From positions 18,834 through 82,833 of the forward strand of contig JBGQMY010000001.1 of assembly GCA_041500865.1 (NCBI GenBank): a DNA stretch of 64,000 nucleotides. The letters run 5' to 3'. This DNA is from Candidatus Micrarchaeia archaeon. Lineage in GTDB: Archaea; Micrarchaeota; Micrarchaeia; Anstonellales; J096. Position numbers and translations under genes: made by a program. Shown here in pieces: positions 2,849 to 59,988 of this stretch. Position 1 is the first letter of the stretch; the number at the start of each line of letters is the position of its first letter. The notes beneath the pieces are model-generated. The model was not told where the DNA came from. It made no database searches and saw only the letters and a program-made list of their open reading frames with translations.

Positions 2849-3310
2849 CTATTTATTTATACACTCCTGGAACGCCGCTATGAATGCCTTTGACTGCTCC
2901 GGATTGGCAATTATCATCATATGGGCTTCAGCAATAGCCCATTTTTCTGGGTCTGGATTTTTGCTGCCAAAGAAAGCGATTTGCAACGGCGTCCTGTTGG
3001 TCATATTGCCCCTGGCATTAATGTCTGCGCCGTGTTCAATCAGAAGCGCATAGGTTTCGGAATTTCCGCACCATGCTGCATAGTGCAGCGCAGTCCAGCC
3101 CCCCGCATCTGTTGCGTTTATCTCGGCCCCAAGCTCCAGGAGACGCATTACTTCCTTATTGTTGCCAACATTGGCATAATCCAGAAGCTCACTATTGAGC
3201 CGCGCCTGGCGCTCTGCCGTAAGCCTCGGCCTTTCGCTCGGCAGGCCCTCCCTCGGAAGCCTGGGCTTTGGACGATTTGGGGCCCTGCCGGCTTCAAGAC
3301 GCTCTGTCAT
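2849..3310 (-). CDS. ankyrin-repeat protein with a KPRLP N-terminal motif and a C-terminal F-x-x-F-Q-E-C-INK tail
   Basis: Two to three ankyrin repeats (GWTALHYAAWCGN..., LLIEHGADINA). Belongs to the paralog family described in the findings. Confidence 0.8.
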   Translation of the reverse strand: MTERLEAGRAPNRPKPRLPREGLPSERPRLTAERQARLNSELLDYANVGNNKEVMRLLELGAEINATDAGGWTALHYAAWCGNSETYALLIEHGADINARGNMTNRTPLQIAFFGSKNPDPEKWAIAEAHMMIIANPEQSKAFIAAFQECINK

Positions 3311-3363
3311 GGATATTCAGTTAATAATAATGTTTAAAAATGTTTTGTATCATAATAGGCAAC

Positions 3364-3891
3364 ATGGACAAAAAACAGCTCGGCAAGAACAAATTGAAAG
3401 GTAACGCTACTCAGAAGATGCCTAATGTTAAAAAGGCCGTAAGCGCAGGCAAGGACGCCCTTGATGCAAAACTGGTTGCAGCCCAGGCTGTCAAAGCGCC
3501 GGCGCCAAAGGCTGCCGCTGACAAGCTGAAGCTGACGCAGGTGGAGCCTGAAGTTCCGCTTAAGGAAACGCTGAAGTCTGCGTGGAACAAGACTGCCCAC
3601 GTGGTCACCGTCCTGAAGAACATTGTCTGGAAGGCGGTTATCCCGGTTGCTGTAGCAGATTATGCCATCCAAACAATAAACGCATGCCAGCACACCACCA
3701 AGGGCCTGATTGTCGGCATTTCCACTGGATTTAACGCGGTTATGCAGCAGATTAAGCCTATTGTGGCATGGGGAGCAGGGCACACGTTGGGCGTAGTCTT
3801 AATAGTTGTTGGCTACATAGCGCTCAACAGGGCCCTGAAGTTCAGGTTCCATACCGCTTCCGCAAATGAATCCGCAGCGGAACAGAAATAA
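3364..3891 (+). CDS. hypothetical protein with a Lys/Ala-rich N-terminus and a C-terminal transmembrane segment
   Basis: ORF 3340..3891 in the track. The internal ATG at 3364 (MDKKQLGK) is the preferred start. An oligo-T tract follows the stop. Confidence 0.45.
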   Translation: MDKKQLGKNKLKGNATQKMPNVKKAVSAGKDALDAKLVAAQAVKAPAPKAAADKLKLTQVEPEVPLKETLKSAWNKTAHVVTVLKNIVWKAVIPVAVADYAIQTINACQHTTKGLIVGISTGFNAVMQQIKPIVAWGAGHTLGVVLIVVGYIALNRALKFRFHTASANESAAEQK

Positions 3892-3948
3892 TTTTATTTT
3901 TTTAGGTTTCTATTTTTCCTTCTTTTCACTAAAATTATAGAAGCGAGC

Positions 3949-5208
3949 TCAAAGCGATTTTAGTCCGCCTGCTATCCTCTTGATGCGCCTTGCCAGTGCG
4001 CCGGAATCCGCGCTCTCAAGGCAGGCAACAAGGTTCTTGTCTGAGACCTCTTGTGCGTATTTTTTGCAGCGCGCGCTTAGCTCCTCAGAGGCGCTGCCCA
4101 TATATGCCAGCGCAAGCCCGAATTTCAGGATTTCCATTGAATAGCCCACATTAATGCCTTCAAGGTCAGCCAACGTTATCGCCGCCTTGGCGCGTATTGA
4201 TTCCTTAGAAGATTCCATCTTCGGGAAGCCCTTGGCAAGGAGATATTCCATGATTGAGCGCTCATCCGCAAACTTTCCCCTGTGCGTTGAAAGCAGGTAT
4301 TTCAGGACTGCGCGGTATATGCGCTCCTCGTCTGCCCTGTTGGCCTTGGCATTGCCCCAAAGCCCGCCCGAAGGGAAGTCAGAAAGCGATTTGTTGGAAT
4401 AAATCCTTATCATGGTTTCTCCGGCAAAGGCAAGGAGCCGGAACTCGTCCTCCAAAAATCTGTCGGCAAGGATGGCTGGCCTCAAGGCGCCAATGTCCCC
4501 ATCATTCTCGCATCTTTCGCCGGAGACGAACTGGAACCTCCTGACCACGACGATATTGCCTATGCCCTCAGTTGCCTTGTCCCCATAAAGAAGGGCTTCC
4601 TGTATCGCGGCATTGAGCAGGTTGCCTTCGTCCCTAAGCGCGGATATTTTTTCAACTATTTCCTTCGTAGTGCCTTCATTAACCCTTATTGCGTCTGCAA
4701 TTGCTGAAACGTCCTTGGCAGAAAGCATGCGGATAATGGCAACCATATTCCTTGCCTGTAAAGGAAAATCCTGCGCCAGCCTGTTAAATTCATCTGCATA
4801 ATCAGTGCTAAGCGGCAGCATCATGCTTCCGTGCATGTACTCTATCAGGTCGGCCGTTATGAAGCCATCGCCCCTTTTCGCAGTCTCCCTTGGAGCCCTG
4901 ACCATGTCATGCAGAAGCCCTGCCATTATCGAAAGCGCAACCGCCTTTGGCCTTTCCGGGGAATGCTCCGGCATTGCATCCATTATGTATTCTGCCCCCG
5001 CCAGCGCTGTCCTGAGCATATGGCCGCTGTTGTGCGCAGCCTGCCTGATGTGCGTTGCTTCCTGCTTGGAATAGATAGAAATGCAGGAATCCGCGAATGC
5101 GCCGAGCTTTTTGGCCAGCGCATTGGAATTTGTAAAGACATCGCGGACGCGATTTGCTGCATAGACAGCCTCTTCCCCAATTGATTTATGGAGCTTGTTT
5201 TTTGTCAT
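3949..5208 (-). CDS. HD-domain metal-dependent phosphohydrolase
   Basis: H...HD motif (HSGHMLR...LLHDMV). The ATG at 5208..5206 overlaps the upstream methyltransferase TGA at 5207..5205, an ATGA junction, which favours the MTKNK start. Confidence 0.6.
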   Translation of the reverse strand: MTKNKLHKSIGEEAVYAANRVRDVFTNSNALAKKLGAFADSCISIYSKQEATHIRQAAHNSGHMLRTALAGAEYIMDAMPEHSPERPKAVALSIMAGLLHDMVRAPRETAKRGDGFITADLIEYMHGSMMLPLSTDYADEFNRLAQDFPLQARNMVAIIRMLSAKDVSAIADAIRVNEGTTKEIVEKISALRDEGNLLNAAIQEALLYGDKATEGIGNIVVVRRFQFVSGERCENDGDIGALRPAILADRFLEDEFRLLAFAGETMIRIYSNKSLSDFPSGGLWGNAKANRADEERIYRAVLKYLLSTHRGKFADERSIMEYLLAKGFPKMESSKESIRAKAAITLADLEGINVGYSMEILKFGLALAYMGSASEELSARCKKYAQEVSDKNLVACLESADSGALARRIKRIAGGLKSL

Positions 5209-12775: not shown

Positions 12776-12820
12776 TTGCAAAATCATTAGCTTTTTAAGG
12801 GTTTAACTTCAATTCTGCTT

Positions 12821-12863
12821 ATGGCAAACATTCACGATAACAGGGGATACCGTGGCGGCAGGC
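12821..12863 (+). repeat. 43-bp direct repeat, left copy (identical to 16921..16963, the start of the Nop5-like gene)
   Basis: Exact 43-nt identity (atggcaaacattcacgataacaggggataccgtggcggcaggc). Degenerate similarity also runs through the 25 nt of promoter sequence upstream. Confidence 0.9.
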
Positions 12864-13202
12864 GACAGCGGCAGGATTGCGAGGCTCCTGAGGCTCGGCG
12901 CCGACGTTTGGGCAAGGGACAATCTAGGCTTTACCGCACTCATGTGCGCCTCATTTGATGGGCACATCAGCATCTGCGCGCTGCTGCTTGAAAGGCTCGC
13001 GCAGGCAGGCGGGGACACAAGAAAGTATATCGAGACTGTGATAGAGGAAGGCATCCATAAGGGATGGGCTGCATTCACATATGCCGAATATAATCACAGG
13101 AAGCCGGCCAAGTTTCTAAAGGCGGCTCCGTTGCTTGCCGAGTCGATGGGAAACGCGGATTTCGCCAAGTTCCTTTCAGGCTTCAGGGAATGCATGGGCT
13201 GA
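12852..13202 (+). CDS. ankyrin-family C-terminal fragment driven by the duplicated Nop5 promoter/start
   Basis: One ankyrin repeat plus the family's C-terminal FAKFLSGFRECMG tail. GTG start in the track. Reading frame differs from that of the duplicated ATG. Confidence 0.5.
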   Translation: MAAGDSGRIARLLRLGADVWARDNLGFTALMCASFDGHISICALLLERLAQAGGDTRKYIETVIEEGIHKGWAAFTYAEYNHRKPAKFLKAAPLLAESMGNADFAKFLSGFRECMG

Positions 13203-13300
13203 TAATAGTCACAGAATCAAGATATGTTATAAAAATGTCAAAGAAGACGATATTTCTCAAATTTATATAGGTTACTTTTATAAATTATAATAAGTATTAA

Positions 13301-13660: not shown

Positions 13661-13694
13661 TCCGAGATAGAGTAATAATGCAGCGACAAAAGAT

Positions 13695-16834: not shown

Positions 16835-16920
16835 AGAACCAGTATATTCTCAAACAATTATAAACCTTGCCAAGAGAACCCATCCCTCAGGTTTATAAGC
16901 ATTTAACCTAAACTACGTTC

Positions 16921-17814: not shown

Positions 17815-17816
17815 GG

Positions 17817-21355: not shown

Positions 21356-21419
21356 CACATAACACCTTGAAACCATTTTAGGGGATAAATTTTTAAAGTA
21401 ATTTTTTCAAGTTGCAGCC

Positions 21420-31021: not shown

Positions 31022-31816
31022 TTACCTAAGATATGACCCTATGGGAGACGAGACACAGCCCAGAAACTCTTCAACGAACGGCCTTATTGTGTTTTTATTG
31101 AGAACATTGCGCACCTCCTTTTTTTCAAGGAATGTGTTCAGGAAGTTTATCTTGGCTGAGCTGTATTCCCATCCTTGTTTGTGCGCTCTGCGGAATGCAT
31201 CAAAAATAGATGTTCCAAGGCTTTCTTGGGAGCAGTCTGCGCCGTGGGATACGAGCATCGACACCATGGGCATCGACACATCAATTCTGCTGTTGCTTAT
31301 TGCCCAAAGCAACGGACGGTCTCCAAGGTTGGGGTTTGCGCCGGCCTCAAGAAGGGCGCTGGCGTTGTCCAGGCAGCCATTTTGTACGGCTAATGCAAGG
31401 GCCGTTTTTCCGGCACCGCACATTGCGTCCTTGTTTGCGCCGCATCCGATAAGGCACTTGACCACAAGCGTGTTTACTGACATGGAAGCGCTCATCAGCG
31501 GCGTGATGCCATCTTCGATGCTCATATTTACATCCGCCCCGTGCCTAACCAGGAGCGCACATATGTCAGGAAGCGGCTTTTGAACAGCCCTTGCAAGCGG
31601 CGTTGCCCCATATTCATCCCTTGCGTTGGGGTCTGTGCCAGCCTCAAGGCACGCCCTTGCGCCTTCATAATCGTCATTCTTTATTGTTCTGAACAGGCGG
31701 CTTGACTGTTCGGTTTTGAGGCTGTCAAGAATAAGCTCCCTTCCCCTGATTATGTCCTTCATTGGAACCGGGAGATTGGGGGTTTGCACTATGACCCTAA
31801 ACGACTTTTCTGCCAT
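31022..31816 (-). CDS. ankyrin-repeat protein with C-terminal FVEEFLGCVSS motif
   Basis: At least five ankyrin repeats. The internal start (MAEKSF) is preferred because the upstream extension is not protein-like. Confidence 0.75.
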   Translation of the reverse strand: MAEKSFRVIVQTPNLPVPMKDIIRGRELILDSLKTEQSSRLFRTIKNDDYEGARACLEAGTDPNARDEYGATPLARAVQKPLPDICALLVRHGADVNMSIEDGITPLMSASMSVNTLVVKCLIGCGANKDAMCGAGKTALALAVQNGCLDNASALLEAGANPNLGDRPLLWAISNSRIDVSMPMVSMLVSHGADCSQESLGTSIFDAFRRAHKQGWEYSSAKINFLNTFLEKKEVRNVLNKNTIRPFVEEFLGCVSSPIGSYLR

Positions 31817-31876
31817 TTTAACCGTTTGTTTTCGTGGTTGAAAGAGTTTATAATACCTTTCATGGAAAACCAATGC

Positions 31877-32812
31877 ATGAAAGAGAGGGAAAAGCCTGCC
31901 AAAATCCAGAAAAAGGTCCGCGGACGGGTAATCCGGCCAATGTACATGCTTGAATCCAAAAGGGGGCGGGAACTGTATATCCGGCTCCATGACGCGCTTG
32001 TTGGGGTGCCGGGACATCCGGATTGGGAGAAGGCAAGGCAAGCCATCAACGCAGGGGCGGATGTTGAATGCGTCCTGAATGAGCTGTTCAAGACTCCGCT
32101 TATATGCGCTGCCATTTACGGCAATGCGGAGACATGCGCCCTTTTACTGAACAAAGGGGCAGAGATTGATGCCGTTGACAGTGACGGAAGCACTGCATTG
32201 ACATCGGCTGCCATCATGGGAGGGCTTGAGGTTTGCAGGCTTCTGATAAGGAAGGGCGCGAACGTGAATGCAGAGAACGGACATAGCACTGCCCCGCTTG
32301 CGTATGCGGCATCAGGCGGCTGGACGGAGATTTGCAGATTGCTTGTCTCAAAGGGAGCGGATATCAACAATGCCAATATTCTGGGATATACCGCACTCAT
32401 GTCTGCGGCAAAGCAGGGCAAGGCAGAGACGTGCAGGGCTTTGCTGGACATGGGCGCCGACATGGATATGGCAGACAATAGTAACAATACAGCGCCTGAG
32501 CATGCCGCAAGGGAAGGAAACCCGGAAACGTGCAAGGTATTTTTGGAAAGAGGATTAGATATCAATGCAAAACGCTATGAGTCGAGCCTGCTCATGTGCG
32601 CCGCAGACAGCGGAAACATGAAAACCTGCGTGTTCCTGCTTGAGAACGGCGCAGATGTGTCCTCAACAGATGGTCCTGGCCACACGGCGGCGTACATGGC
32701 ACAGGCCAATAACCACAATGCAGTATCGGGATTCCTCAAGCTTATGGAATCGCTTGGCGATGATTCGATAATGCCGTTCCTTTCGGAGTTCAGGGCATGC
32801 GTAAGCCAGTAA
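31877..32812 (+). CDS. ankyrin-repeat protein ending in FLSEFRACVSQ
   Basis: Eight ankyrin repeats. A GTTTATAATA box at about 31845..31854 supports a leaderless start at MKEREKP. Confidence 0.8.
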   Translation: MKEREKPAKIQKKVRGRVIRPMYMLESKRGRELYIRLHDALVGVPGHPDWEKARQAINAGADVECVLNELFKTPLICAAIYGNAETCALLLNKGAEIDAVDSDGSTALTSAAIMGGLEVCRLLIRKGANVNAENGHSTAPLAYAASGGWTEICRLLVSKGADINNANILGYTALMSAAKQGKAETCRALLDMGADMDMADNSNNTAPEHAAREGNPETCKVFLERGLDINAKRYESSLLMCAADSGNMKTCVFLLENGADVSSTDGPGHTAAYMAQANNHNAVSGFLKLMESLGDDSIMPFLSEFRACVSQ

Positions 32813-32842: not shown

Positions 32843-33436
32843 ATGATTGCGGACAGGCTCAGGGACTGGCTTAATGTGAAGCTGTTTTTTCCCATAGGCA
32901 AAATGCTTTATTTCCTTGATCCTAATCTTATGACTGCGCTGGCATATCCGCTTTGCGCGATTGCCGGATATTTCGTTTATGCAAAAGACTATCCGCTTGC
33001 GCTTGTTTTTGTCGTCCTTTCGTCCATTGTCGACAACCTTGACGGAGCGATAGCGAAGGCGAACAACAAAAAGACGTCGTTCGGCTCTTATTTTGACGCG
33101 ATGACGGACAGGATACAGGAATTCTTCATACTTCTGGGTTTTGCGCTTTCCGGCTATGCGGTTGAGGCGTTCGTTGCGATTGCGGCAAGTTTCATGGTGA
33201 GCTACGCGAAGGCCCGCGCGGAAATGATTAAGCCGCTCGGCAACATGGACTGGCCGTCAATCGGCGAAAGGGCGGAGAGGCTGATAATAGTGATGCTGGC
33301 GATGTTGGCCGCGATATTCTACCCGGTCGTTTATGGATACAATACAATAAGCGCAGGGCTGTGGATACTGGCGATTGTCGCGTTCATAGGGACGGTGCAG
33401 AGGTTCTTCTTCGCGAAGCAACTGCTTTCAAAATGA
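32843..33436 (+). CDS. CDP-alcohol phosphatidyltransferase family protein
   Basis: Signature D-x2-DG-x2-AR-x8-G-x3-D-x3-D (DNLDGAIAKANNKKTSFGSYFDAMTDRIQE) in a multi-transmembrane protein. Confidence 0.75.
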   Translation: MIADRLRDWLNVKLFFPIGKMLYFLDPNLMTALAYPLCAIAGYFVYAKDYPLALVFVVLSSIVDNLDGAIAKANNKKTSFGSYFDAMTDRIQEFFILLGFALSGYAVEAFVAIAASFMVSYAKARAEMIKPLGNMDWPSIGERAERLIIVMLAMLAAIFYPVVYGYNTISAGLWILAIVAFIGTVQRFFFAKQLLSK

Positions 33437-34117
33437 GACGCATTCCAGGAAATTCATTCCGAACGCCTTTGCGGCGTATTCTGGGAGTATGTTGTGCAGC
33501 TTAACGAAACGTATCATATAATGTCTTGCGTCCTTTCCGATTGCCAGATCCCACGCGCTATAACTGTCAACATCCCTCTTTATGTTCGGGTCGGCGCCTG
33601 CAGCAAGCAGAACCATTGCCGCGTTAATCATAGTCATGCGATCTAAAGAACTTCCGGCAACGGCTTCGTGGAGCGGGGTGCTGCCGTATCTGTCAGTCGC
33701 ATTAACATTTGCTCCTTTGGTTATCAAGATGCTGCATATATCTGCGCATCCAGACCCTGCGGCAAGGTGCAGTGCTGTACTGCCACGGCTAGTCTTTGCG
33801 GTAATGAACCGCTTTACGCCTCCATTTGATTTTGCGCATTGTTCTATAAGCAGTGCGCAGGTTTGGTAATATCTCTTATTTGCAGCAAGATGCAGGGCAG
33901 TCCAGCCTGTATCGTCCTTTGCTGTGATGTTTGCGCCTTTCCTTATGAGCTTCACTATTTCCTCGTTGTTGCCGTTCCACGCGGCGCTGCGAAGCGCTTT
34001 ATTGAGCCGCCTCTGCTCTTTTGTGGATAATATGATCATTTCGCTCGGCAGTATGTCCATTGCCAGCCTTGGGCTTGAAGGCAGAATCTGTTTGATTTGG
34101 CTTTTTTCCTGCGCCAT
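33428..34117 (-). CDS. ankyrin-repeat protein, array member 4, ending in FGMNFLECVSF
   Basis: Ankyrin repeats. The start ATG directly follows the TAG of the upstream array gene. Confidence 0.8.
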   Translation of the reverse strand: MAQEKSQIKQILPSSPRLAMDILPSEMIILSTKEQRRLNKALRSAAWNGNNEEIVKLIRKGANITAKDDTGWTALHLAANKRYYQTCALLIEQCAKSNGGVKRFITAKTSRGSTALHLAAGSGCADICSILITKGANVNATDRYGSTPLHEAVAGSSLDRMTMINAAMVLLAAGADPNIKRDVDSYSAWDLAIGKDARHYMIRFVKLHNILPEYAAKAFGMNFLECVSF

Positions 34118-34684
34118 CTAGCCACCGCCCGATATGCATCCCTTGAATCCGGAAAGGAATTCCTTGAGGGATTTATTTCCAATCAGTTGCTGCAAAAACT
34201 CCATATTTTCAAGAAATAGGGCTGTGGCGGTGCTTTTCTGCTCTAGGGCAATCATGCGCGCAGTCCTTTTGAGATTGTCCCTTGCGCCGACATTTGCGCC
34301 TTTTTCAATCAGCAGTTTGCAGATTTTCGTATGGCCCTTGTATGCGGCAACCATGAGCGCGGTCCAGTTGTAGCTGGTCTTTGCCTCGATATCCGCGCCA
34401 TTTTCAATCAGGAGGGTGCAGATATCAAACTGCTCCTGTATTGCGGCCTTCATGAGCGCAGTAATCTCCTTAAGCGCATCCCTTGCGTTCGGGTTTGCGC
34501 CTTTGCCCAACAGAATCTTGACATCTTTTATCCGACCATACCTGACTTTCTGGAAAAGATCATCATTCAGCTGCTCTTGCGTCATTTCGCCAAACATAAT
34601 CCCATCTATTGCATACTTATGCTTGACAAGCCTTGGCTTCTCTTGTACGGGCATATCCTTCGGGAGATTCTTTAGCTGCGCCAT
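34118..34684 (-). CDS. ankyrin-repeat protein, array member 3, ending in FLSGFKGCISGGG
   Basis: Ankyrin repeats. N-terminal MAQLKN...EKPRL. Confidence 0.8.
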   Translation of the reverse strand: MAQLKNLPKDMPVQEKPRLVKHKYAIDGIMFGEMTQEQLNDDLFQKVRYGRIKDVKILLGKGANPNARDALKEITALMKAAIQEQFDICTLLIENGADIEAKTSYNWTALMVAAYKGHTKICKLLIEKGANVGARDNLKRTARMIALEQKSTATALFLENMEFLQQLIGNKSLKEFLSGFKGCISGGG

Positions 34685-35233
34685 TCAGGCACCGCCCCAT
34701 ATGCAATCCAGGAAGCTCTTTCCGAACGGGATTGTGTTACTGCCAATCAGCTCTTTTGTGTCCTCAAAATGGACGAGCGCAAGCCTCATCTTTCCCCTTC
34801 CGTTGGCAAAGTCCCATGCGTTGTTCGCCTCGCGGCTGCAAGTTTCGTAGATGTCGGGGTCTGCCCCATGGAAAACCAGCAGCAACGAGGCATCATAGTG
34901 GTTGTTGATTATGGCAGCCATAAGCGCATTGTAGCCATTGCTGTCCTGCTGGTTGGCGTTTGCCCCGTTTTTGAGAAGAATCCTGCATATGTCCGTACAG
35001 CCCTTGGAGGCGGCGATGGAAAGCATTGGCTGACGCTGAAACGGCTTGCCATTGGACTTTGTATTAGGGTTTGCGCCTTCCTTGATGCATCTGGAGACAA
35101 GGGAAACGTCCCCGGTCTTTACGGCATATTCAAGCGAATAATCCGCCAGGTCCTGCTTATCAGAATCAGTTGTTTTGAGCTTGGCAAGGTTTGGCTTCTT
35201 TTGCTGGTCTTTTTCCTGCTTTTGGAGCTGCAT
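34685..35233 (-). CDS. ankyrin-repeat protein, array member 2, ending in FGKSFLDCIWGGA
   Basis: Ankyrin repeats. Confidence 0.8.
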   Translation of the reverse strand: MQLQKQEKDQQKKPNLAKLKTTDSDKQDLADYSLEYAVKTGDVSLVSRCIKEGANPNTKSNGKPFQRQPMLSIAASKGCTDICRILLKNGANANQQDSNGYNALMAAIINNHYDASLLLVFHGADPDIYETCSREANNAWDFANGRGKMRLALVHFEDTKELIGSNTIPFGKSFLDCIWGGA

Positions 35234-35893
35234 TCAGGCACCACCCACGCATTCGCGGAAGGATTTCGTGAATGAAACCATTCCCTCTTGCCCTAGGGAC
35301 CTGCGCATGCGGTTAAAGAAAATCAGCAAACCTGCGACTTCGGGATGTTCGGCCCATACTGCCCTGCGCCAAGGCGCCCAGCCTTTTTTGTCCTTTGCTG
35401 TCATGTCGGCGCCGTTTTCAATCAGCAATGCGCATACGTCAATGTGCCCGGCCCAGGCTGCGCAATGGAGCGGCGTGTTGCCATCTTCGTCCTTTGCATT
35501 GACATCCGCTCCTTTGCTTATCAAAATGGCGCAGGCGCGGGCGTTTCCGCCGTTTGCGGCATGGTGCAGGGCCGCACTGCCGTGATTGTCCTTTAGCTCC
35601 ATGTCAGCGCCGTTTTCAATAAGCGCTGAACAGGCTTCCGGGGTGCCGTGCTTTATCGCATAATGCAGCGGCGTCTGGCCGTCCTTGTCCGTAGCATTGA
35701 CATTTGCTCCGTCATGAATGCTTTGCTGGATTCGTTCAATATCTCCATCAAGTGCGCCATTGAACAGCGCATTGGTCCTAAGAAGCTGGCCGTAGTCCTG
35801 CGGCTTTGGGCTTTTTTCCAGCAATGTTTCATCAGGCAGCCTGGGCTTCTGGGGCTGGGAACCGCTTTTTCCTGCTTTCCGGCTTTCCTGCAT
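35234..35893 (-). CDS. ankyrin-repeat protein, array member 1, ending in FTKSFRECVGGA
   Basis: Ankyrin repeats. N-terminal ...QKPRLP. A TATA-like box lies about 27 nt upstream, at roughly 35914..35925. Confidence 0.8.
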   Translation of the reverse strand: MQESRKAGKSGSQPQKPRLPDETLLEKSPKPQDYGQLLRTNALFNGALDGDIERIQQSIHDGANVNATDKDGQTPLHYAIKHGTPEACSALIENGADMELKDNHGSAALHHAANGGNARACAILISKGADVNAKDEDGNTPLHCAAWAGHIDVCALLIENGADMTAKDKKGWAPWRRAVWAEHPEVAGLLIFFNRMRRSLGQEGMVSFTKSFRECVGGA

Positions 35894-35994: not shown

Positions 35995-36588
35995 ATGGCC
36001 AATGAAACTTTCGCAAGAGGGGCGGAAAGGCCCGGAAACAGAACGCTTTCTTATGGCAAGGAACCTCTTTTTGACAGCCAAACGAAGCGCTGGCAGGATA
36101 GCGCGCTCCTAGTAGCAGTGCGCAACAGGAGCGTGGAAAGCGCGCTAATGGCAATAGACAAAGGCGCAAGCATAGACACAAAGGACATAAGCGGCAGCAC
36201 TGCGCTGATGATAGCGGCTGAAAGCGGTGATGCGGCTATGTGCAGGGCTCTTCTGTGCAAAGGGGCCGACATTGAGGCAAGGATGATAAACACCGATATC
36301 GGGCTCGGGACGTGCGAAACCGCGCTGATAACTTCGGCAAAGCACGGCAAAAAAGACGTTTGCATCCTTTTGCTGGAAAAAGGCGCAGACCCAAACGCAA
36401 AAGACAGGTACAAGACAACTGCGCTCATGTATGCTGCGCAGTTGGGGCATCCGGACGTTTGCACGGCCCTGCTGGAGCATGGGGCGGACCCGCGCCTAAA
36501 GGACGTGAACTTAATGACTGCGCTCCAGCTTTCAAGGAATGGCGCAAGCGAGGCCATACAGGAATACCTTGCCCATTTTAAAGTGTAA
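35995..36588 (+). CDS. ankyrin-repeat protein without the Cys-containing tail
   Basis: Five ankyrin repeats. Ends in ...EYLAHFKV. Confidence 0.8.
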   Translation: MANETFARGAERPGNRTLSYGKEPLFDSQTKRWQDSALLVAVRNRSVESALMAIDKGASIDTKDISGSTALMIAAESGDAAMCRALLCKGADIEARMINTDIGLGTCETALITSAKHGKKDVCILLLEKGADPNAKDRYKTTALMYAAQLGHPDVCTALLEHGADPRLKDVNLMTALQLSRNGASEAIQEYLAHFKV

Positions 36589-46622: not shown

Positions 46623-47173
46623 AACTGCTTTTCGCGACGCACAACAAGGGGAAGCTTGCAGAGGCGCGGCAAATCCTTGGCCAGAAGGGGGTTGAGATAG
46701 GGCACCTTGAGGTTGAGTATGGCGAGCCGCGCGGGGAGGACACTTCCGAGATAGCGCGCAAGAGCGCTGAGCAGCTTTATCCGATCGTGAAAAAGCCGCT
46801 TTTCCTTGACGACAGCGGGCTTTTCGTTGATGCGCTGAAGGGATTTCCTGGGCCTTATTCCGCTTTTGTCTATAAAAGAATCGGATATGCCGGCATACTT
46901 AATTTGCTTAGCGGGAATTCCAACAGGAAGGCATATTTCAAGTGCTCAATTGCATATGCTGACGAAGACGGCGTCAAGGTTTTTGACGGGACAGTAAACG
47001 GCGGCATATCAAATGCGCCAAGGGGAGATGACGGATTCGGCTATGACCCTGTTTTCGTGCCTGACGGATTTTCCGAGACGTTTGCTGAGATGGATGACAA
47101 GGAGAAGAACGCGATTTCGCACAGGGGAAAGGCATTGGCCCTGTTCGCGGAATGGGTGGCAAAGAAGGATTAG
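46619..47173 (+). CDS. non-canonical purine NTP pyrophosphatase (Ham1/RdgB/ITPase)
   Basis: FATHNKGK N-terminus, FVPDG, and the SHRG C-terminal motif. ATGA overlap with glyS. Confidence 0.85.
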   Translation: MKLLFATHNKGKLAEARQILGQKGVEIGHLEVEYGEPRGEDTSEIARKSAEQLYPIVKKPLFLDDSGLFVDALKGFPGPYSAFVYKRIGYAGILNLLSGNSNRKAYFKCSIAYADEDGVKVFDGTVNGGISNAPRGDDGFGYDPVFVPDGFSETFAEMDDKEKNAISHRGKALALFAEWVAKKD

Positions 47174-47943
47174 GCGGCGAGGCAATCGCTGAAGGATTTC
47201 ATGAATGGGCTGAATGCTTCATTCCCAACCATTACCTCAAGCAATTTGGACGCAAGGAACTCCATGGGCAAGACATGCCCGCTCAGTATGGCCATGCCCA
47301 ATGGCGTATTGCCTGAATTGCTCCTTATGGCGATATCGGCGCCGTTTTCCATCAGCAGGGCGCAAGTCCTGGTGTCGATGTTGGTTGCGGCATAGTGCAG
47401 TGGCGTCATTCCGGCATAGTCTTTTGAGTTGATGAGCTCTATTACGTTTCCGCCTGCTTTTGCGTATTCTTCTATCAGCAGTTTGCAGATGTCGGTATTT
47501 CCAGACGCTGCGGCACGGTGAAGGGCTGTCTTGCCGGCATTGTCCTTTGCGTTCACGTCCGCTCCCTTTTCAAGCAGTAAAGCGCAGGTCTCGGTATGTC
47601 CGTTCGCTACGGCATACATGAGCGCAGTTGTACCATAATTGCTCTTTGCGTTCACGTCCGCTCCGTTCTTTATCAGCATGGTGCAGGTGTCGGTGTGTCC
47701 GTTCACTGCGGCAAGCATGAGCGCAGTCCAGCCGTCCTTGTCCTTTGCCTCGATGGTTGCGCCTTTCTTGATGAGCCGCTCTATCTCATTGATATTGCTA
47801 TTCTTTGCGGCGCTGATGAGTTCATCATTGAGTTTCTTCTGCGCTTCTTCTGGCACTTTTGGCTTCTCGCTTGGCAAAATATCGGCTTTATGGTTTATTG
47901 GTTTCTTTGTTGTACTCTTTAGGCTCCGCTTCCTTTCCTGCAT
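47170..47943 (-). CDS. ankyrin-repeat protein ending in FMKSFSDCLAA
   Basis: Six ankyrin repeats. The internal start MQERKR is preferred because the upstream extension overlaps the divergent MBL gene and is not protein-like. Confidence 0.75.
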   Translation of the reverse strand: MQERKRSLKSTTKKPINHKADILPSEKPKVPEEAQKKLNDELISAAKNSNINEIERLIKKGATIEAKDKDGWTALMLAAVNGHTDTCTMLIKNGADVNAKSNYGTTALMYAVANGHTETCALLLEKGADVNAKDNAGKTALHRAAASGNTDICKLLIEEYAKAGGNVIELINSKDYAGMTPLHYAATNIDTRTCALLMENGADIAIRSNSGNTPLGMAILSGHVLPMEFLASKLLEVMVGNEAFSPFMKSFSDCLAA

Positions 47944-47994
47944 GCATCCATCGTGCGGCAAAGGGATTAAAATGCTATTGGGCAATGAGATTCC

Positions 47995-49288: not shown

Positions 49289-49294
49289 TAGCCT

Positions 49295-52300: not shown

Positions 52301-52313
52301 GAGGCGGCTGACC

Positions 52314-55300: not shown

Positions 55301-55691
55301 GAACACGATAGGCGAGATAATCAGGGGCAGGAATGCGCTGAACCCTTCAGTGATGATAATGTACATAACGGATTTCGGGGACAACGCCGGTGACCTGGAA
55401 GGCGTAGTTTCGGCCACAAGGCAATTCGGGACGTTTGCCAGAAAATACAGGGCAGATTCCAAGACTGTCAATTACATCTCCAACGACGCGGGCATAGCCA
55501 CGCTGTTCGTTGTCCCGGACGAGCACAGCGACAGCGACGACATAATGGGCGCGGTTGAAAGGGCGACAAGCGGGGCCGTTGTCAAGTTCACCGGCGAGAA
55601 CGAGAGGGACGTTCTTGACAAGATGAACGCGCTCAGGCCCGTCCTTGAGGGGCTCAGGGCAAGCAACGTGGCTGAGAAGGCTGAAAAGTGA
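52314..55691 (+). CDS. large VWA-domain protein with MIDAS motif, HExxH motif and K/E/G-rich low-complexity linker
   Basis: HEWGH at aa 458-462 (nt 53685..53699). K/E/G-rich linker at about aa 716-800. C-terminal VWA domain with MIDAS motif DTSGS at aa 893-897 (nt 54990..55004). This is the AAA+ partner architecture seen in CobT, ChlD and NorD. Confidence 0.75.
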   Translation: MAQSAFDVMKEEPTQRKGGPRERKRLMESSGLGTAGMEKGVRLFTDYGAFTDFASRFNGDVVTAYEAAKQGTVEEAGRIAEDLFPTKGNRATFGKAVRKFCDDSFSMLFAMVLMEGQLDRNYTAHVESALSQRAKNLMSFIRDFEDMKSPERMRERVISTIGTFKDEFPFALMQQLDKFEAGVRKGAYDDMLAQISKAYMETRMGEQKGFEAYFFINYRENAFFDIITLAMENSAMGMIKKDDMLAMFRRESPEQVFLFPSLFVPIYGADEFMRLRAGKVVADIPIDDGLRAVLSEQEMWKDIPIRPAEQVIPPLGNVAQLIRDMPSANVDAVSRAEANTLPPQEMKSFIFRRMAERKISPVLDVVPSGCSIGERDRIRANASTRTVQYGVNDTFPEMDMGIGISIMFHHLSDRMKFVNRMENALGYTDGAGIYLFPYYSRMPTRDLNAYLLFNVGRHEWGHISMGSFEYTAGNVPKIDLFAPLERDASYAKRYEEKGKENIAQLQEFINGIMRSVDAELSKRENGKATLREIYKTIDGTIKSHYKKEEHSKNPYIKRFYEYFGTELYRHIDNVIDDYRIDRSFYDGKGRDEILYEMGVAETDKLRKIYRVSTYLRAMNRAVSMHEQFKEEPNKSNAVDTLFLRTILDEKSFSELVGPSVDPLFRDICEIAMSEVYKGADTPRRVNEVMCASMEFMALAMIFDDAIKPPKVVRQKKKGEGGEKGGEKGEKGEGEQQGGTPKEDLDKEKGEKEKGGKGDKKGDKGDEDEGQGDSLIDKDQDGNVNINKDDKKVEGREKEVENLNAAEKHGYETIEVRAEKVEMFKQFFRDLRIDRMVIITELGKRGARVDVDELVKFMYRKGAREATFLEKKVMETDVGSHLEARPIDIYIGVDTSGSMTGDSGRMKNSKRISLEMLAGYNEVAAEMRSANIRLHLISVATEGDHIAIRDWDATKGLMVEKKGDFYSISYKFSEINGATDLPAMITQFQSFVEEIKKNTIGEIIRGRNALNPSVMIMYITDFGDNAGDLEGVVSATRQFGTFARKYRADSKTVNYISNDAGIATLFVVPDEHSDSDDIMGAVERATSGAVVKFTGENERDVLDKMNALRPVLEGLRASNVAEKAEK

Positions 55692-56284
55692 TGGCAACCA
55701 GGATACGGCAAGCCAACCAAGGGGGCGGCGGGACAGAGACTGTATTAAATCTTGCGAAGCCTGAGCCAGATAAAAATCCAAATGCTTTTGCATCCAAGCC
55801 GGATACAGACAAAGAGGCGCTTTCGGCAGAGAATATGGATATTCTTACCGACGCGCTTATTTTTGAGATACGGCATGGCGGCATAAAAAACGTAAATTAC
55901 AGGCTTAGTGAAGGAGCCGACCCGAACAGGACAGACAAGGAAGGCATCTTGCCGATGGCAGCGGCAGTTTGCGTAAATAAAATCAATGTATGCAGGCTGT
56001 TGCTGAAAAAAGGGGCGGATGTAGATGGCAAGGACAGGCGCGGCTGGACTGCGCTCATGTATGCCGCCTGGGCCAACAACGCGATGATGTGCAGGTTTTT
56101 GCTGGGCCATGGGGCAGACGCCCTGATAATGGACAAAGAGAAAAATTCAACATACGGCCTGCCGAATGAAAAGGAAACGAAGGCACTGTTGAAGATGTTT
56201 GCATGGAAAAGCAAGGCCCTGAAAAGCCTGCTCAGTGGCAGGATTGGGGCGTTCAAGGAGCATTTTGGGCTCTGCGTTTCTTGA
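55691..56284 (+). CDS. ankyrin-repeat protein translationally coupled to the VWA gene, ending in FKEHFGLCVS
   Basis: TGATG overlap with the VWA stop. The track ORF begins with GTG at 55688. Confidence 0.75.
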   Translation: MATRIRQANQGGGGTETVLNLAKPEPDKNPNAFASKPDTDKEALSAENMDILTDALIFEIRHGGIKNVNYRLSEGADPNRTDKEGILPMAAAVCVNKINVCRLLLKKGADVDGKDRRGWTALMYAAWANNAMMCRFLLGHGADALIMDKEKNSTYGLPNEKETKALLKMFAWKSKALKSLLSGRIGAFKEHFGLCVS

Positions 56285-58393: not shown

Positions 58394-58519
58394 ATGGTTT
58401 AAGGTTGCATATACCTGTTTATAACGCTTTGCGCAGTCGGAAAAAGAAAAGCGTTTTTAACCTATGCCAAGAATATATGGTAAGCCTTTTAGCAAAAGGC
58501 TTAAGCGAAAAACGTATGT

Positions 58520-58593
58520 GGGGCCTTGGGGTAACCTGGTTAGCCTGTTGGCTTCGGGAGCCAGAGATCCGAGTTCAAATCTCGGAGGCCCCA
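58520..58593 (+). tRNA. tRNA-Pro (anticodon CGG); coordinates uncertain by about 1 nt
   Basis: Hand-folded. Acceptor GGGGCCT/AGGCCCC, anticodon stem TTGGC/GCCAG with loop TTCGGGA, T-arm CCGAG-TTCAAAT-CTCGG, discriminator A, no CCA. A TTTATAAA box lies immediately downstream. Confidence 0.85.
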
Positions 58594-58626
58594 TTCTTTA
58601 TAAAACGTTTAATGCAAAATAAAGGC

Positions 58627-59187
58627 ATGGCGCAGGAAAGGCATAGGCTTGCTGCTAAGATTACCGAGCAAAAACGGCCCAAACTGGCAGGCAAGAAGCT
58701 GCCGGCAGACAAAGGCATTCAATACGAGAAGAAACAGAAGCGGCTCAACGGACAACTGCTTAAAGTTGCCGGAAAGGGAAATGCTGAAAAGGTGAAGCGC
58801 CTGCTGGAGCTTGGCGCAGACATAAATGCAAAAGACAGCGAGGGCTTTACAGCGCTCATGTTTGCCTTGAACGCGAGACATACCGATATCGCCATGTTCC
58901 TGATAGGATTAGGGGCGGACGTGCATGGAAAGGAAAGAGGCATGACTCCCCTTATGATTGCCGCATCATACGGCTATATAGGCATTTGCGAGCTGCTGAT
59001 TGGAAAAGGCGCGGATATCGGAGCAGAGGATCAGGCACGCCGGACTGCATATGACTGGGCAAAGATAAGGTTTGAGGAAGAAATGGTCGACTTCCTGATA
59101 TATGCGAAGCGTTTGGTGAAAGTGACTGGCAAGGACGGCTTCAGGACATTCCTTTCGGATTTCAGGGCTTGCGCCGGAAGCGCCTAG
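58627..59187 (+). CDS. ankyrin-repeat protein ending in FLSDFRACAGSA
   Basis: The track ORF 58405..59187 runs through the tRNA. The start is taken at MAQERH, about 25 nt downstream of the TTTATAAA box. Confidence 0.7.
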   Translation: MAQERHRLAAKITEQKRPKLAGKKLPADKGIQYEKKQKRLNGQLLKVAGKGNAEKVKRLLELGADINAKDSEGFTALMFALNARHTDIAMFLIGLGADVHGKERGMTPLMIAASYGYIGICELLIGKGADIGAEDQARRTAYDWAKIRFEEEMVDFLIYAKRLVKVTGKDGFRTFLSDFRACAGSA

Positions 59188-59226
59188 TTTTATAAACTCT
59201 TTTCAACATGAATTGAAACGATTGTA

Positions 59227-59988
59227 ATGAAGCTGGCCCGCAGAATAACCAACACTAAAAAGGTCGCTGGCAGCTTAATTTATAGAACAAATGTCCTTGA
59301 CCAGGAAGCGTTAAACAAAAAGCTTTTTGAGACAATAGATAACTTTGGCGGAAGGCCTGAAGTCTCATACTGGATAATGCAGGGCGCAAACATAGAGGCA
59401 AGGAACTCTAAAAAAGAGACACCGCTATTCATGGCAGTGTACCGCGGCGGGCCGGCAATAATAAATCTCCTGCTGGAATGCGGCGCAAATATAGACGCAA
59501 AGGACAAATGGGGCCGGACGCCGCTCATGAATGCAGTAATGCAATCAGACCGCGGCACAGAGGCATGGCTCCTTATAGAAAAGGGGGCGGATGTGCATGC
59601 AAAGGACAAAGGGGGCACGCCCGTCATTTGCTTTGCTGCGCTGTACGGAAGGAACCAAATTGTGTATGACCTCCTCAAAAAAGGCGCTGACATAAACGCA
59701 ACGGACAGGTGGGGCAAGACGCCGCTGATGATTGCAGTAAAGGAAAACAATCTCAAACTTATAGCGATGCTCATAGAGATGGGCGCGGACATAACGATAA
59801 TGGACAATGAAGGAATGACAGTGCTTGACCAAGCCAGAAGGCAGGAAAATGCCGAAAAATTCGGAACACTGCAGATAATATTCCTTGCAGGATTCGGAAA
59901 AGAGACATTCACGGCATTCAGGAAAAGCTTCAGGGAATGCATCGTCAAGGAAAGGGGATACATTTCCGCATCCAGCTACCTTTTATAA
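59227..59988 (+). CDS. ankyrin-repeat protein with FRKSFRECIV near the C-terminus
   Basis: Six ankyrin repeats. Confidence 0.8.
   Translation: MKLARRITNTKKVAGSLIYRTNVLDQEALNKKLFETIDNFGGRPEVSYWIMQGANIEARNSKKETPLFMAVYRGGPAIINLLLECGANIDAKDKWGRTPLMNAVMQSDRGTEAWLLIEKGADVHAKDKGGTPVICFAALYGRNQIVYDLLKKGADINATDRWGKTPLMIAVKENNLKLIAMLIEMGADITIMDNEGMTVLDQARRQENAEKFGTLQIIFLAGFGKETFTAFRKSFRECIVKERGYISASSYLL

What the first reader, a model, noticed from the sequence alone, without database searches (positions are those of the whole stretch)
2849..59988. Thirteen ankyrin-repeat paralogs sharing a C-terminal F-x-x-F-R-E-C motif, several of them CaaX-like
Almost every ankyrin protein in the window ends with (F/L)xx(F/M)(R/K/L)(E/A/D/G)C followed by 2 to 5 residues. 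The endings seen are ...FQECINK, ...FRECMG, ...FLGCVSS, ...FRACVSQ, ...FLECVSF, ...FKGCISGGG, ...FLDCIWGGA, ...FRECVGGA, ...FSDCLAA, ...FGLCVS, ...FRACAGSA and ...FRECIV.

Four end in exactly Cys plus three residues (CVSQ, CVSF, CLAA, CINK), the geometry of a prenylation CaaX box. Host-prenylated ankyrin effectors are known from Legionella. Many members also share an N-terminal KPRLP or KPKVP motif.

This density, about one ankyrin gene per 5 kb, together with a conserved Cys tail suggests a secreted or membrane-targeted effector family with a lipidation, sorting or disulfide tag. That would fit a host-associated lifestyle.
Basis: seen in the sequence. Interest (0 to 1): 0.75.

Follow-up and report, generated by a model that had tools for sequence, protein, structure and literature searches.

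The report
Archaeal ankyrin family with cysteine tail
A small symbiotic-type archaeon (probably Micrarchaeota) carries a fast-evolving, much-duplicated family of ankyrin-repeat proteins that all end in the same short helix with an invariant cysteine; the helix is real and family-specific, but it is not a prenylation (CaaX) signal.

Summary
The window has 13 ankyrin-repeat genes, 13% of its bases, and 12 of them end in F-x3-F-x2-C. Two endings were misread and run 10 and 15 residues past the Cys.

The contig is archaeal. Relatives with this tail were found only in contigs of Micrarchaeota/Micrarchaeia-type MAGs. Across 43 distinct tails, F(-7) and the Cys (which the selection pattern required) are in all 43, and F(-3) is in 40.

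None of about 145 bacterial ankyrin ORFs and none of 116 generic ankyrin database hits carry the tail. No non-ankyrin ORF carries it either.

The CaaX reading fails:
- 2 to 15 residues follow the Cys, and only 20 of 43 tails have exactly three.
- The second position after the Cys is Ser, Gly or Ala, not aliphatic.
- The Cys lies inside a predicted helix.
- The longer "GG[AVGK]" endings are Shine-Dalgarno sequences for the next gene of a tandem array (8/8 versus 0/28).

My best reading is a family-specific C-terminal helical module that caps the repeat stack or serves as an interaction surface. It sits on rapidly diversifying soluble binding proteins. Orthologues are 43-63% identical where neighbouring housekeeping genes are 75-93%.

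The family also has Cys at one buried position of 85% of its repeats, against 2-5% in other ankyrins. The function is untested.

The parts
2849..3310 (-). Ankyrin family member, 153 aa. Leader contains RPKPRLP; tail is ...FIAAFQECINK (Cys+3). Leaderless-type promoter with TATA at -29. Abuts tRNA-Asn (2769-2841).
12852..13202 (+). N-terminally truncated family fragment, 116 aa with a GTG start and no leader. Tail is ...FLSGFRECMG (Cys+2). Lies at the edge of the 40% GC island.
31022..31816 (-). Family member, 264 aa. Tail is ...FVEEFLGCVSSPIGSYLR (Cys+10). No orthologue in the syntenic relative L081.
31862..32812 (+). Family member, 316 aa with several ankyrin repeats. Tail is ...FLSEFRACVSQ (Cys+3). 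No orthologue in L081.
33428..34117 (-). Last gene of the tandem array, 229 aa. Tail is ...FGMNFLECVSF (Cys+3). 50% identical to L081 11132-11809.
34118..34684 (-). Array gene 3 (= P0001), 188 aa. Tail is ...FLSGFKGCISGGG (Cys+5). First structure model.
34685..35233 (-). Array gene 2, 182 aa. Tail is ...FGKSFLDCIWGGA (Cys+5).
35234..35893 (-). First gene of the array, 219 aa. Leader contains QKPRLP; tail is ...FTKSFRECVGGA (Cys+4). TATA at -31. Second structure model. 63% identical to L081 8828-9493.
34115..34138 (-). Array junction: TGC ATA TCG GGC GGT GGC TAG|ATG. The codons after the Cys form a Shine-Dalgarno-like GGCGGTG 6-12 nt upstream of the next gene's ATG. The same arrangement occurs at 34682-34705 and 35231-35254.
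35995..36588 (+). Ankyrin protein, 197 aa, with the family's Cys-containing repeats (MCRALL, VCILLL, VCTALL) but no Cys tail; it ends ...EYLAHFKV.
47170..47943 (-). Family member, 257 aa. Leader contains KADILPSEKPKVP; tail is ...FMKSFSDCLAA (Cys+3). TATA at -29.
55691..56284 (+). Family member, 197 aa. Tail is ...FKEHFGLCVS (Cys+2). Its ATG overlaps the stop codon of the upstream 1125-aa gene by one base.
58612..59187 (+). Family member, 191 aa. Leader contains QKRPKL...KKLPAD; tail is ...FLSDFRACAGSA (Cys+4). Starts 18 nt after tRNA-Pro.
59227..59988 (+). Family member, 253 aa. Tail is ...FRKSFRECIVKERGYISASSYLL (Cys+15). Followed by a glycosyltransferase whose likely start, ATG at about 60014, has a GAGG 7-12 nt upstream.

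Best explanation
The tails are the end of a roughly 40-residue C-terminal helical module that belongs to one lineage-specific family of small, soluble ankyrin-repeat proteins. The family lives in an archaeon, probably Micrarchaeota (DPANN).

Each protein has three parts:
- A basic, disordered N-terminal leader with loose KPxL and K(L/I)LP(S/T)E motifs.
- Two to eight ankyrin repeats.
- A long last helix, a 'G-polar-polar-polar' turn and a final amphipathic helix. The hydrophobic stripe of that helix is phi(-10), F(-7), phi(-6), F(-3), C(0), I/V(+1).

I read the Cys as one residue of that buried stripe. I think the helix folds back to cap the otherwise exposed face of the last repeat. On this reading the tail is a structural part of the domain, not a lipidation box.

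The few residues after the Cys are unconstrained in the protein. In tandem arrays they are dictated by the Shine-Dalgarno sequence of the next gene.

The repeats between the two conserved ends diversify quickly. They most likely act as a repertoire of protein-binding modules for the symbiont's dealings with its host or with its own proteins.

Shown: family membership, tail conservation and specificity, helix prediction, the Shine-Dalgarno link, fast divergence.
Inferred: intramolecular capping, the binding-repertoire role.
For: - Tail conservation: F(-7) is present in 43/43 distinct tails and F(-3) in 40/43. The Cys is in all 43, although the selection pattern required it. C+1 is I/V/L in 39/43.
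- The hydrophobic residues are spaced as on one face of a helix; mean hydrophobic moment is 0.45.
- AlphaFold model of P0001: pLDDT 89, helix 152-168, a 4-residue loop, then helix 173-185 at pLDDT about 80. The conserved 'G-[KNRD]-[DEN]-x-phi' before the last helix fits a helix stop and restart.
The last ~30 residues are not a further canonical repeat.
- Cys is this family's habitual core residue. Canonical repeat position 18 is Cys in 61/72 repeats, against 10/474 and 18/382 in other ankyrins.
- Residues after the Cys vary from 2 to 15. All 8 'GG' extensions are followed at once by the next ATG, against 0 of 28 other tails (p = 3e-8). Internal operon genes of this window use GGTG or GAGG at -8 to -14.
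- No transmembrane segment or signal peptide.
- Ankyrin orthologues are 43-63% identical where flanking housekeeping genes are 75-93%. Copy number differs between the two relatives.
Against: - The second AlphaFold model (35234-35893) draws one continuous 34-residue helix through the tail instead of a hairpin. So the fold-back is not a robust prediction.
- I could not inspect coordinates, contacts or PAE.
- The Cys is in all 43 tails against 85% at the repeat core position. R(-2) and E(-1) on the polar side are also semi-conserved. Both hint at a constraint beyond simple packing.
- An ankyrin with the same Cys-bearing repeats (35995-36588) does without the tail, so the tail is not needed for folding of such a stack.
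- No experiment exists.
Confidence: 0.45

Rival explanations
1. Intermolecular docking or oligomerisation helix. The last helix projects from the domain. Its hydrophobic stripe binds a common partner or pairs with the same helix of another family member as a coiled coil. The Cys sits at the interface, possibly bridged by a disulfide or a metal. The conserved ends plug variable ankyrin binders into one common hub.
For: - The second model shows a single projecting helix 184-217 at pLDDT 75-94.
- The hydrophobic residues have heptad-like spacing.
- The Cys is present in all 43 tails, and R(-2)/E(-1) are semi-conserved.
- The architecture of constant ends around a variable, fast-evolving middle resembles adaptor families.
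- Tandem, co-translated paralogues would be made together.
Against: - The heptad register breaks at the conserved Gly-polar turn (alignment).
- No candidate partner gene is conserved next to the family. Neighbours differ at each locus.
- No multimer prediction was possible with these tools.
Confidence: 0.25
2. Export, translocation or sorting signal. The conserved N-terminal leader and/or the Cys tail mark the proteins for delivery out of the symbiont, for instance into the attached host cell. That would make the family an effector repertoire.
For: - A host-dependent type of organism.
- Massive expansion: 13 genes, 13% of the window.
- Fast divergence and gain or loss between close relatives.
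- Conserved termini around variable repeats.
- Ankyrin proteins are listed among domains common in symbionts (PMC7414124).
Against: - No Sec or Tat signal, no transmembrane segment, no known C-terminal sorting domain.
- No secretion-system genes seen in the window.
- The tail is a well-predicted helix rather than a flexible tag.
- Two members carry 10-15 extra residues after it.
- As far as I know, no translocation signal of this kind is known in archaea.
Confidence: 0.1
3. Membrane attachment without CaaX. The amphipathic helix lies in the membrane surface, or the Cys is lipidated (thioether or thioester) by an archaeal enzyme.
For: - A terminal amphipathic helix with an invariant Cys.
- Isoprenoid-modified proteins have been reported in haloarchaea (my own knowledge, not checked here).
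- Mevalonate-pathway genes and a CDP-alcohol phosphatidyltransferase gene lie in the window.
Against: - The residue next to the Cys is acidic in 31/43 tails, and the helix is not flanked by basic residues. That is unfavourable for binding anionic lipids.
- Mean hydrophobicity is low, at 0.18.
- No candidate transferase was found.
Confidence: 0.07
4. One reading: a CaaX-like box farnesylated or geranylgeranylated by a eukaryotic host, as in Legionella AnkB.
For: - 20 of 43 tails have exactly three residues after the Cys.
- C+1 is usually aliphatic.
- A few tails (CILS, CVSL, CLAA) look acceptable as CaaX boxes.
- Prenylated ankyrin proteins exist in eukaryotes and poxviruses (PMC1847700).
Against: - 23 of 43 tails have 2, 4, 5, 9, 10 or 15 residues after the Cys.
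- The a2 position is S/G/A/N/E/T in nearly all Cys+3 tails.
- The tail lengths track downstream Shine-Dalgarno sequences.
- The Cys is inside a helix.
- The three prenyltransferases are eukaryotic (PMC1847700), and there is no sign of a eukaryotic host.
- A conserved Cys in CaaX position can have other roles (PMC1847700).
Confidence: 0.03

Closest known systems
Legionella pneumophila AnkB (F-box, ankyrin, CaaX effector)
   Same: A prokaryotic ankyrin-repeat protein with a Cys close to the C-terminus, in an organism that depends on another cell.
   Different: AnkB has an F-box, a strict Cys+3 CaaX (CLVC, from my own knowledge), a Dot/Icm secretion system and a eukaryotic host. Here there is no F-box hit and the Cys-to-end distance varies. 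Matches to Legionella T4SS ankyrin models reach only 16-98 bits against cut-offs of 450-1400. The organism is an archaeon.
Poxvirus, Wolbachia and Orientia ANK-PRANC proteins; eukaryotic ASB (ankyrin plus SOCS box) proteins
   Same: Large paralogous families that pair a variable ankyrin array with a short conserved C-terminal helical module. The SOCS BC-box even has a conserved Leu and Cys (my own knowledge).
   Different: No PRANC, F-box or SOCS-box Pfam hit at E <= 0.01. The spacing of conserved residues differs. The ubiquitin-ligase partners of those modules are eukaryotic.
Designed and natural capped ankyrin domains (DARPin N- and C-caps)
   Same: The core of the model superposes on N2C DARPins at about 1 A over about 122 residues. 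A terminal helix that shields the last repeat is the standard solution for ankyrin stacks.
   Different: The tail is not a recognisable ankyrin half-repeat: hhalign probability is 0.1%, and rmsd is 4.2-4.5 A when forced onto a third internal repeat. It has its own invariant F/F/C signature.
Expanded 'eukaryote-like' ankyrin repertoires of symbionts (sponge symbionts, Rickettsiales, amoeba symbionts)
   Same: High copy number, tandem arrays, fast divergence, and an organism thought to depend on a host.
   Different: Those symbionts live with eukaryotes and many of the proteins are secreted. This is a DPANN-type archaeon. One DPANN survey notes ankyrin proteins among symbiont-typical domains but reports none in Undinarchaeota (PMC7414124). 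I found no paper describing this family.

Membership tests
Ankyrin repeat proteins (Pfam PF00023/PF12796 clan) | Two or more tandem ~33-residue repeats scoring above the Pfam gathering threshold | tested here: met
   All 13 ORFs: Ank_2 28.7-186 bits against a cut-off of 27.3, and Ank 30-124 bits against 21.1.
Ankyrin repeat proteins (Pfam PF00023/PF12796 clan) | Stacked helix-turn-helix repeat fold | tested here: met
   AlphaFold models with pLDDT 89-90. Foldseek to DARPins gives E about 4e-9 and rmsd about 1 A.
CaaX prenylation substrates | Cys exactly four residues from the C-terminus | tested here: not met
   4 of 12 window tails and 20 of 43 family tails have it. The others have 2, 4, 5, 9, 10 or 15 residues after the Cys.
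CaaX prenylation substrates | Aliphatic residue at a2 (second residue after the Cys) | tested here: not met
   C+2 is S (16), G (11) or A (5) of 43. Among the Cys+3 tails only CILS has an aliphatic a2. The a2 preference itself is from my own knowledge.
CaaX prenylation substrates | Exposure of a flexible C-terminus to eukaryotic farnesyl- or geranylgeranyltransferase | not testable with these tools
   The enzymes are eukaryotic (PMC1847700). The contig is archaeal, and the family was found only in Micrarchaeota-type contigs. The Cys lies in a predicted helix.
Legionella Dot/Icm ankyrin effectors (NCBIfam T4SS_Ank*) | Score above the curated equivalog cut-off | tested here: not met
   Best score is 98 bits against cut-offs of 450-1400. 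The matches cover ankyrin repeats only.
ANK-PRANC, F-box and SOCS-box adaptor proteins | A recognisable PRANC, F-box or SOCS-box domain beside the repeats | tested here: not met
   No such Pfam family at E <= 0.01 in any of the 13 proteins.
C-terminal sorting signals (PGF-CTERM/archaeosortase, LPXTG-type) | Motif followed by a transmembrane helix and a basic tail | tested here: not met
   The maximum 19-residue Kyte-Doolittle mean is below 1.6 in all 13 proteins, and usually 2-5 residues follow the Cys. No NCBIfam sorting domain was hit.
Sec/Tat-exported proteins and lipobox lipoproteins | N-terminal hydrophobic signal segment (plus a lipobox Cys for lipoproteins) | tested here: not met
   The N-termini are basic and hydrophilic and are predicted disordered, with pLDDT 50-70. 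No dedicated signal-peptide predictor was available.

The most novel reading that the evidence does not exclude
The family is the effector repertoire of a DPANN episymbiont. The conserved N-terminal leader is a translocation signal for passage into the attached host cell. The invariant-Cys helix anchors or docks the proteins there, through a thiol-dependent link or lipidation in an archaeal membrane. The unusual cysteine at the core of every repeat may be part of the same chemistry. The diversifying repeats target host proteins.
Probability: 0.1. Interest if true: 0.8.

Novelty: new variant of a known kind. Interest (0 to 1): 0.4.

Why it matters
How DPANN archaea manipulate or attach to their hosts is largely unknown, and few candidate interaction proteins are known.

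This is a reduced-type genome that spends 13% of a 64-kb stretch on one fast-evolving, gain-and-loss-prone ankyrin family with constant ends. That offers a concrete, testable set of candidates for host or partner binding.

The finding also gives a clean caution for motif hunting. A conserved C-terminal Cys with three residues after it need not be a CaaX box. Part of a protein's C-terminal sequence can be written by the ribosome-binding site of the next gene.

The family-wide replacement of a buried Val by Cys in the repeats is an unexplained structural oddity that protein engineers may find interesting.

Tried and rejected
- **Tail-only profile search of the 5.8-billion protein set:** 41 candidates, none scored. 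The profile was too short for the word index and the database size.
- **Genome scan with A4:** it used generic ankyrin patterns. It returned mostly bacterial ankyrins, which served as negative controls, plus three Micrarchaeota contigs.
- **Metagenome scans with the FLS[GD]FREC pattern:** the 29-aa query confirmed nothing. The 59-aa query confirmed one locus, L080.
- **Profile search with A2 against the protein set:** swamped by generic ankyrins. Only P0126 and P0131 were new family members.
- **Search of 1.84 billion representatives with tails plus seven full-length proteins (A8):** sequence weighting turned it into a 220-position generic ankyrin profile with 887,625 hits.
- **Tail as a degenerate ankyrin repeat:** rejected by hhalign at 0.1% probability and by the structural superpositions.
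- **Viral origin:** no relatives in viral contigs.
- **Defence-system link:** PADLOC gave only repeat-level matches.
- **Literature:** nothing on ankyrins in Micrarchaeota, and nothing on the MAG accessions.
- **AFDB fold search:** the library was unavailable.
- **Upstream frames of 12852-13202:** searched for a frameshifted N-terminus; none found.

Full report

Six-frame translation and Pfam confirm 13 ankyrin-repeat ORFs between 2849 and 59988. Together they cover 8,325 nt, 13% of the window, about one gene per 5 kb.

Twelve end with F-x3-F-x2-C close to the C-terminus. In an alignment of the 12 tails, the two Phe and the Cys are the only invariant columns.

The thirteenth gene (35995-36588, +) has the family's repeats but stops at ...AHFKV.

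The 'FLGCVSS' protein continues PIGSYLR, and the 'FRECIV' protein continues KERGYISASSYLL.

Several start positions needed correction:
- tRNA-Pro lies inside the long ORF 58405-59187, so the gene starts at 58612.
- The public gene call for 47170-48354 is 257 aa.
- 12852-13202 is an N-terminally truncated remnant with no leader in any upstream frame.

The N-terminal motif exists but is loose: [KRQS]-P-x-[LFVM] in 16 of 43 family members, a K(L/I)LP(S/T)E-like motif in 20, and Q-x2-L-N at the start of the first helix in 28.

**2. Where does the window come from?**

The contig is archaeal. It carries:
- Nop5/Nop56.
- RtcB interrupted by an intein with a LAGLIDADG endonuclease.
- A class II tRNA synthetase that JGI calls glycyl-tRNA synthetase.
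- A mevalonate-decarboxylase-like gene followed by two GHMP kinases.

The same sequence is in NCBI assembly GCA_041480205.1, contig JBGOZM010000007.1.

I could not obtain a name for that MAG. The only labelled genomes that hold relatives of the family are a 'Candidatus Micrarchaeia archaeon' MAG (JBGQMB01; L003, L004) and a 'Candidatus Micrarchaeota archaeon' MAG from Lac Pavin sediment (JAPLWW01; L006, L087 and P0037).

The assignment to Micrarchaeota (DPANN) is therefore an inference from the family's relatives, not from marker genes.

**3. Anatomy of the family**

I collected 43 distinct tail-bearing ankyrin proteins. They come from the window, from another contig of the same MAG (L084), from a syntenic relative (L081), and from further contigs and database hits: L003, L004, L080, L083, L085, P0002, P0003, P0006, P0016, P0018, P0037 and P0126.

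Each has three parts:
- A basic N-terminal leader of about 35 residues, predicted disordered.
- Two to eight repeats.
- A C-terminal module with the consensus FL-x(6-9)-(L/M)-G-polar(2-3)-phi-x2-F-phi-x2-F-(R/K)-E-C-(I/V)-(S/G).

Counted from the Cys:

| Position | Residue | Count (of 43) |
|---|---|---|
| -7 | F | 43 |
| -3 | F | 40 |
| -1 | E | 27 |
| +1 | I, V or L | 39 |
| +2 | S, G or A | 32 |

The selection pattern required the Cys itself. No tail-like end lacking it was seen among the other ankyrin ORFs of these loci; the tail-less ones simply stop after a repeat.

The hydrophobic positions (-10, -7, -6, -3, 0, +1) fall on one face of a helix; mean hydrophobic moment is 0.45.

There is no transmembrane segment or N-terminal hydrophobic stretch in any window member.

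No Pfam or NCBIfam family other than ankyrin matches them. Matches to Legionella T4SS ankyrin models are far below their cut-offs.

**4. A cysteine in every repeat**

The repeats themselves are unusual. The buried helix-B position, canonical ankyrin position 18 and normally Val, is Cys in 61 of 72 family repeats (85%), giving the consensus (D/E)-(I/T)-C-x-L-L-I-E-x-G-A-D.

In ankyrin repeats of the bacterial control loci it is Cys in 10 of 474. In generic database ankyrins it is Cys in 18 of 382.

So this family habitually uses Cys as a core residue. That weakens the argument that a conserved Cys must be chemically reactive. Why the family does this remains unexplained.

**5. Specificity of the tail**

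- None of about 145 ankyrin ORFs in the 74 non-archaeal genome loci carries the tail.
- Of 118 generic ankyrin hits to the family profile, only two do (P0126, P0131), and both sit in the same kind of archaeal contig.
- A 27-column tail HMM was run over 11,879 six-frame ORFs from 155 kb of archaeal loci and 1.14 Mb of bacterial loci. Every ORF scoring E <= 0.02 is an ankyrin ORF of the archaeal loci, and its tail match ends 0-14 residues from the C-terminus. The next best score is 8.6 bits.
- The HMM was built from these same proteins. This shows specificity, not sensitivity.
- Not every ankyrin in the lineage has the tail: one window gene lacks it, as do two of the three ankyrin ORFs seen in the Lac Pavin MAG.
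- No relatives were found in viral contigs.

**6. Test of the CaaX idea**

A CaaX box needs the Cys exactly four residues from the end. FTase and GGTase-I are eukaryotic enzymes (PMC1847700).

The number of residues after the Cys in the 43 tails is:

| Residues after the Cys | Tails |
|---|---|
| 2 | 9 |
| 3 | 20 |
| 4 | 4 |
| 5 | 7 |
| 9 | 1 |
| 10 | 1 |
| 15 | 1 |

Among the 20 Cys+3 tails, the a2 residue is S, G, A, N, E or T in all but one (CILS). The preference for an aliphatic a2 is from my own knowledge.

In both structure models the Cys lies inside a helix.

No prenyltransferase, CaaX-protease or ICMT family was hit in the ORFs of the window that were scanned.

The same paper notes that a conserved Cys in CaaX position can serve prenylation-independent roles.

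**7. What sets the length after the Cys**

All eight tails that end in GG[AVGK] and for which DNA is available are followed, with no spacer, by the ATG of the next gene in a tandem array. They carry four or five residues after the Cys. None of the other 28 tails is followed in this way (Fisher p = 3e-8).

The codons read GGC GGT GGC TAG|ATG, GGC GGT GCC TGA|ATG, GGT GGT GCC TGA|ATG and GGT GGT GTC TGA|ATG. This places a Shine-Dalgarno-like GGnGGTG 6-12 nt upstream of the start.

This fits how genes in the window start in general:
- First genes have a TTTAAA or TTTATA box about 28-29 nt upstream of the ATG, the leaderless type. This includes the stand-alone family genes at 2849 and 47170 and the first array gene at 35234.
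- Internal operon genes have GGTG or GAGG at -8 to -14.

In other arrays (L080, L004) each stop codon is instead followed directly by a TTTTTAA box.

The residues beyond C+1/C+2 are therefore not constrained by the protein. In tandem arrays they are written by the neighbour's translation signals.

**8. Structure**

The model of P0001 (34118-34684) has pLDDT 89. It shows a disordered leader (pLDDT 50-70), ankyrin helices, a long helix 152-168, a four-residue loop and a tail helix 173-185 at pLDDT about 80.

Foldseek aligns it to N2C designed ankyrins at about 1 A over about 122 columns. Alignment to proteins with one more repeat costs 4.2-4.5 A, so the last ~30 residues are not a canonical extra repeat.

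A profile-profile comparison of tail against family repeat is null, at 0.1% probability.

The second model (35234-35893, pLDDT 89.7) draws a single helix 184-217 straight through the tail. The two models disagree on hairpin versus projecting helix.

The conserved Gly followed by polar or N-cap-type residues before the last helix favours a turn in most members. I could not see coordinates or PAE.

**9. Evolution**

The region from about 21.8 to 46.6 kb is syntenic with a 179-kb JGI contig (L081). Identities between the two are as follows:

| Gene | Identity (%) |
|---|---|
| GlyRS | 91.5 |
| ABC transporter (two genes) | 92, 92.6 |
| RtcB, outside the intein | 87.6 |
| Cu-ATPase | 86.5 |
| MarR | 85.4 |
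| CDP-alcohol phosphatidyltransferase | 81.7 |
| MnmA | 75 |
| Ankyrin array orthologues | 63, 43, 50 |
| Fourth array gene | no clear orthologue |

Repeat number also differs. The relative has five array genes to the window's four. The window has two extra family genes plus a semialdehyde dehydrogenase inserted between the CDP-alcohol phosphatidyltransferase gene and MarR.

Only two other genes diverge as fast: the 1385-aa protein without Pfam hits (41%) and a 214-aa protein (42%).

So the family is under much weaker or diversifying constraint in the repeats, while the termini stay recognisable.

**10. Mechanism**

My best-supported reading (0.45) is that the tail is a structural element. It is the hydrophobic stripe of a terminal helix that folds back to cap the last repeat, with the Cys as one more buried Cys in a family that favours buried Cys.

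The proteins would be soluble binding modules whose repeats diversify.

The main rival (0.25) is that the helix projects and docks onto a common partner or another family member. The presence of the Cys in every tail, the semi-conserved R-E before it, and the second model all favour this.

A translocation or sorting signal (0.10) and non-CaaX membrane attachment (0.07) cannot be excluded, but no positive evidence supports them. CaaX prenylation by a eukaryotic host is unlikely (0.03).

**11. Comparison with what is known**

The family works most like other 'variable ankyrin array plus constant short terminal module' families: ANK-PRANC in poxviruses and Wolbachia, ASB proteins with a SOCS box, and Legionella AnkB. 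It fails every membership test for them (see the membership table).

It is a bona fide ankyrin family with an N-terminal leader and a C-terminal module that no library I searched describes. I found no paper on ankyrin expansions in Micrarchaeota. One DPANN study mentions ankyrin proteins only to say that Undinarchaeota lack them.

I class it as a new variant of a known kind, with moderate interest.

**12. Limits**

The global distribution of the tail is not established. All three attempts at a tail-only search of large databases failed for technical reasons.

The taxonomy of the MAG is inferred. The structural conclusions rest on two AlphaFold summaries that disagree.

Noticed in passing
window 38107-40899 (+): RtcB RNA ligase of 930 aa interrupted by an intein with a LAGLIDADG homing endonuclease. 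The orthologue in the close relative L081 (5825-7243) is 472 aa and intein-free, at 87.6% identity outside the intein.
   Followed up: partly
window ~12000-16900: A low-GC island, 40% against about 52% elsewhere. It holds a Type IIG restriction-modification enzyme (14135-16834, -, 899 aa; PADLOC REase_MTase_IIG 352 bits) and small unannotated ORFs. The truncated ankyrin fragment 12852-13202 sits at its edge. It looks like a recent insertion.
   Followed up: partly
all family repeats, e.g. window 34118-34684, 35234-35893, 47170-47943: 'Cysteine ladder': the buried helix-B position that is Val in ordinary ankyrin repeats is Cys in 85% of this family's repeats, against 2-5% in control ankyrins. 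The reason is unknown.
   Followed up: partly
window 40903-45060 (-), 52314-55691 (+), 61136-63625 (-): Three large proteins of 1385, 1125 and 829 aa with no Pfam family. The 1385-aa one is syntenic with a 1470-aa protein in L081 but only 41% identical, diverging as fast as the ankyrins. They may be surface or host-contact proteins.
   Followed up: no
window 48752-56284 (+): An apparent operon: a 178-aa protein, an 876-aa protein with two P-loop regions (AAA_22, weak STAND/Orc1-like matches), a 124-aa protein, a 1125-aa unknown and an ankyrin family member whose ATG overlaps the previous stop codon. No defence system was recognised.
   Followed up: partly
window, all gene starts: Two clean classes of translation start. 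First genes have TTTAAA or TTTATA about 28-29 nt upstream of the ATG (leaderless type). Internal genes have GGTG or GAGG at -8 to -14.
   Followed up: yes
window 2769-2841 (+) and 58519-58594 (+): tRNA-Asn and tRNA-Pro each lie directly beside a family gene: 8 nt from the stop of 2849-3310, and 18 nt before the start of 58612-59187. This may be coincidence, or the tRNA genes may act as insertion sites.
   Followed up: no
window 6458-9522 (+), 20201-21376 (-), 22376-23509 (-): A mevalonate-decarboxylase-like gene plus two GHMP kinases in a row. From my own knowledge this resembles the Thermoplasma-type mevalonate route. A bacterial-type S-adenosylmethionine synthetase and an MnmA-type tRNA thiolase also occur in this archaeal contig.
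   Followed up: no
window 36592-38058 (+); L081 7293-8783: A 488-aa class I methyltransferase with about 300 residues of unknown sequence lies next to the ankyrin array in both relatives, at 64% identity. This may be plain synteny. No link to the tail was shown.
   Followed up: no
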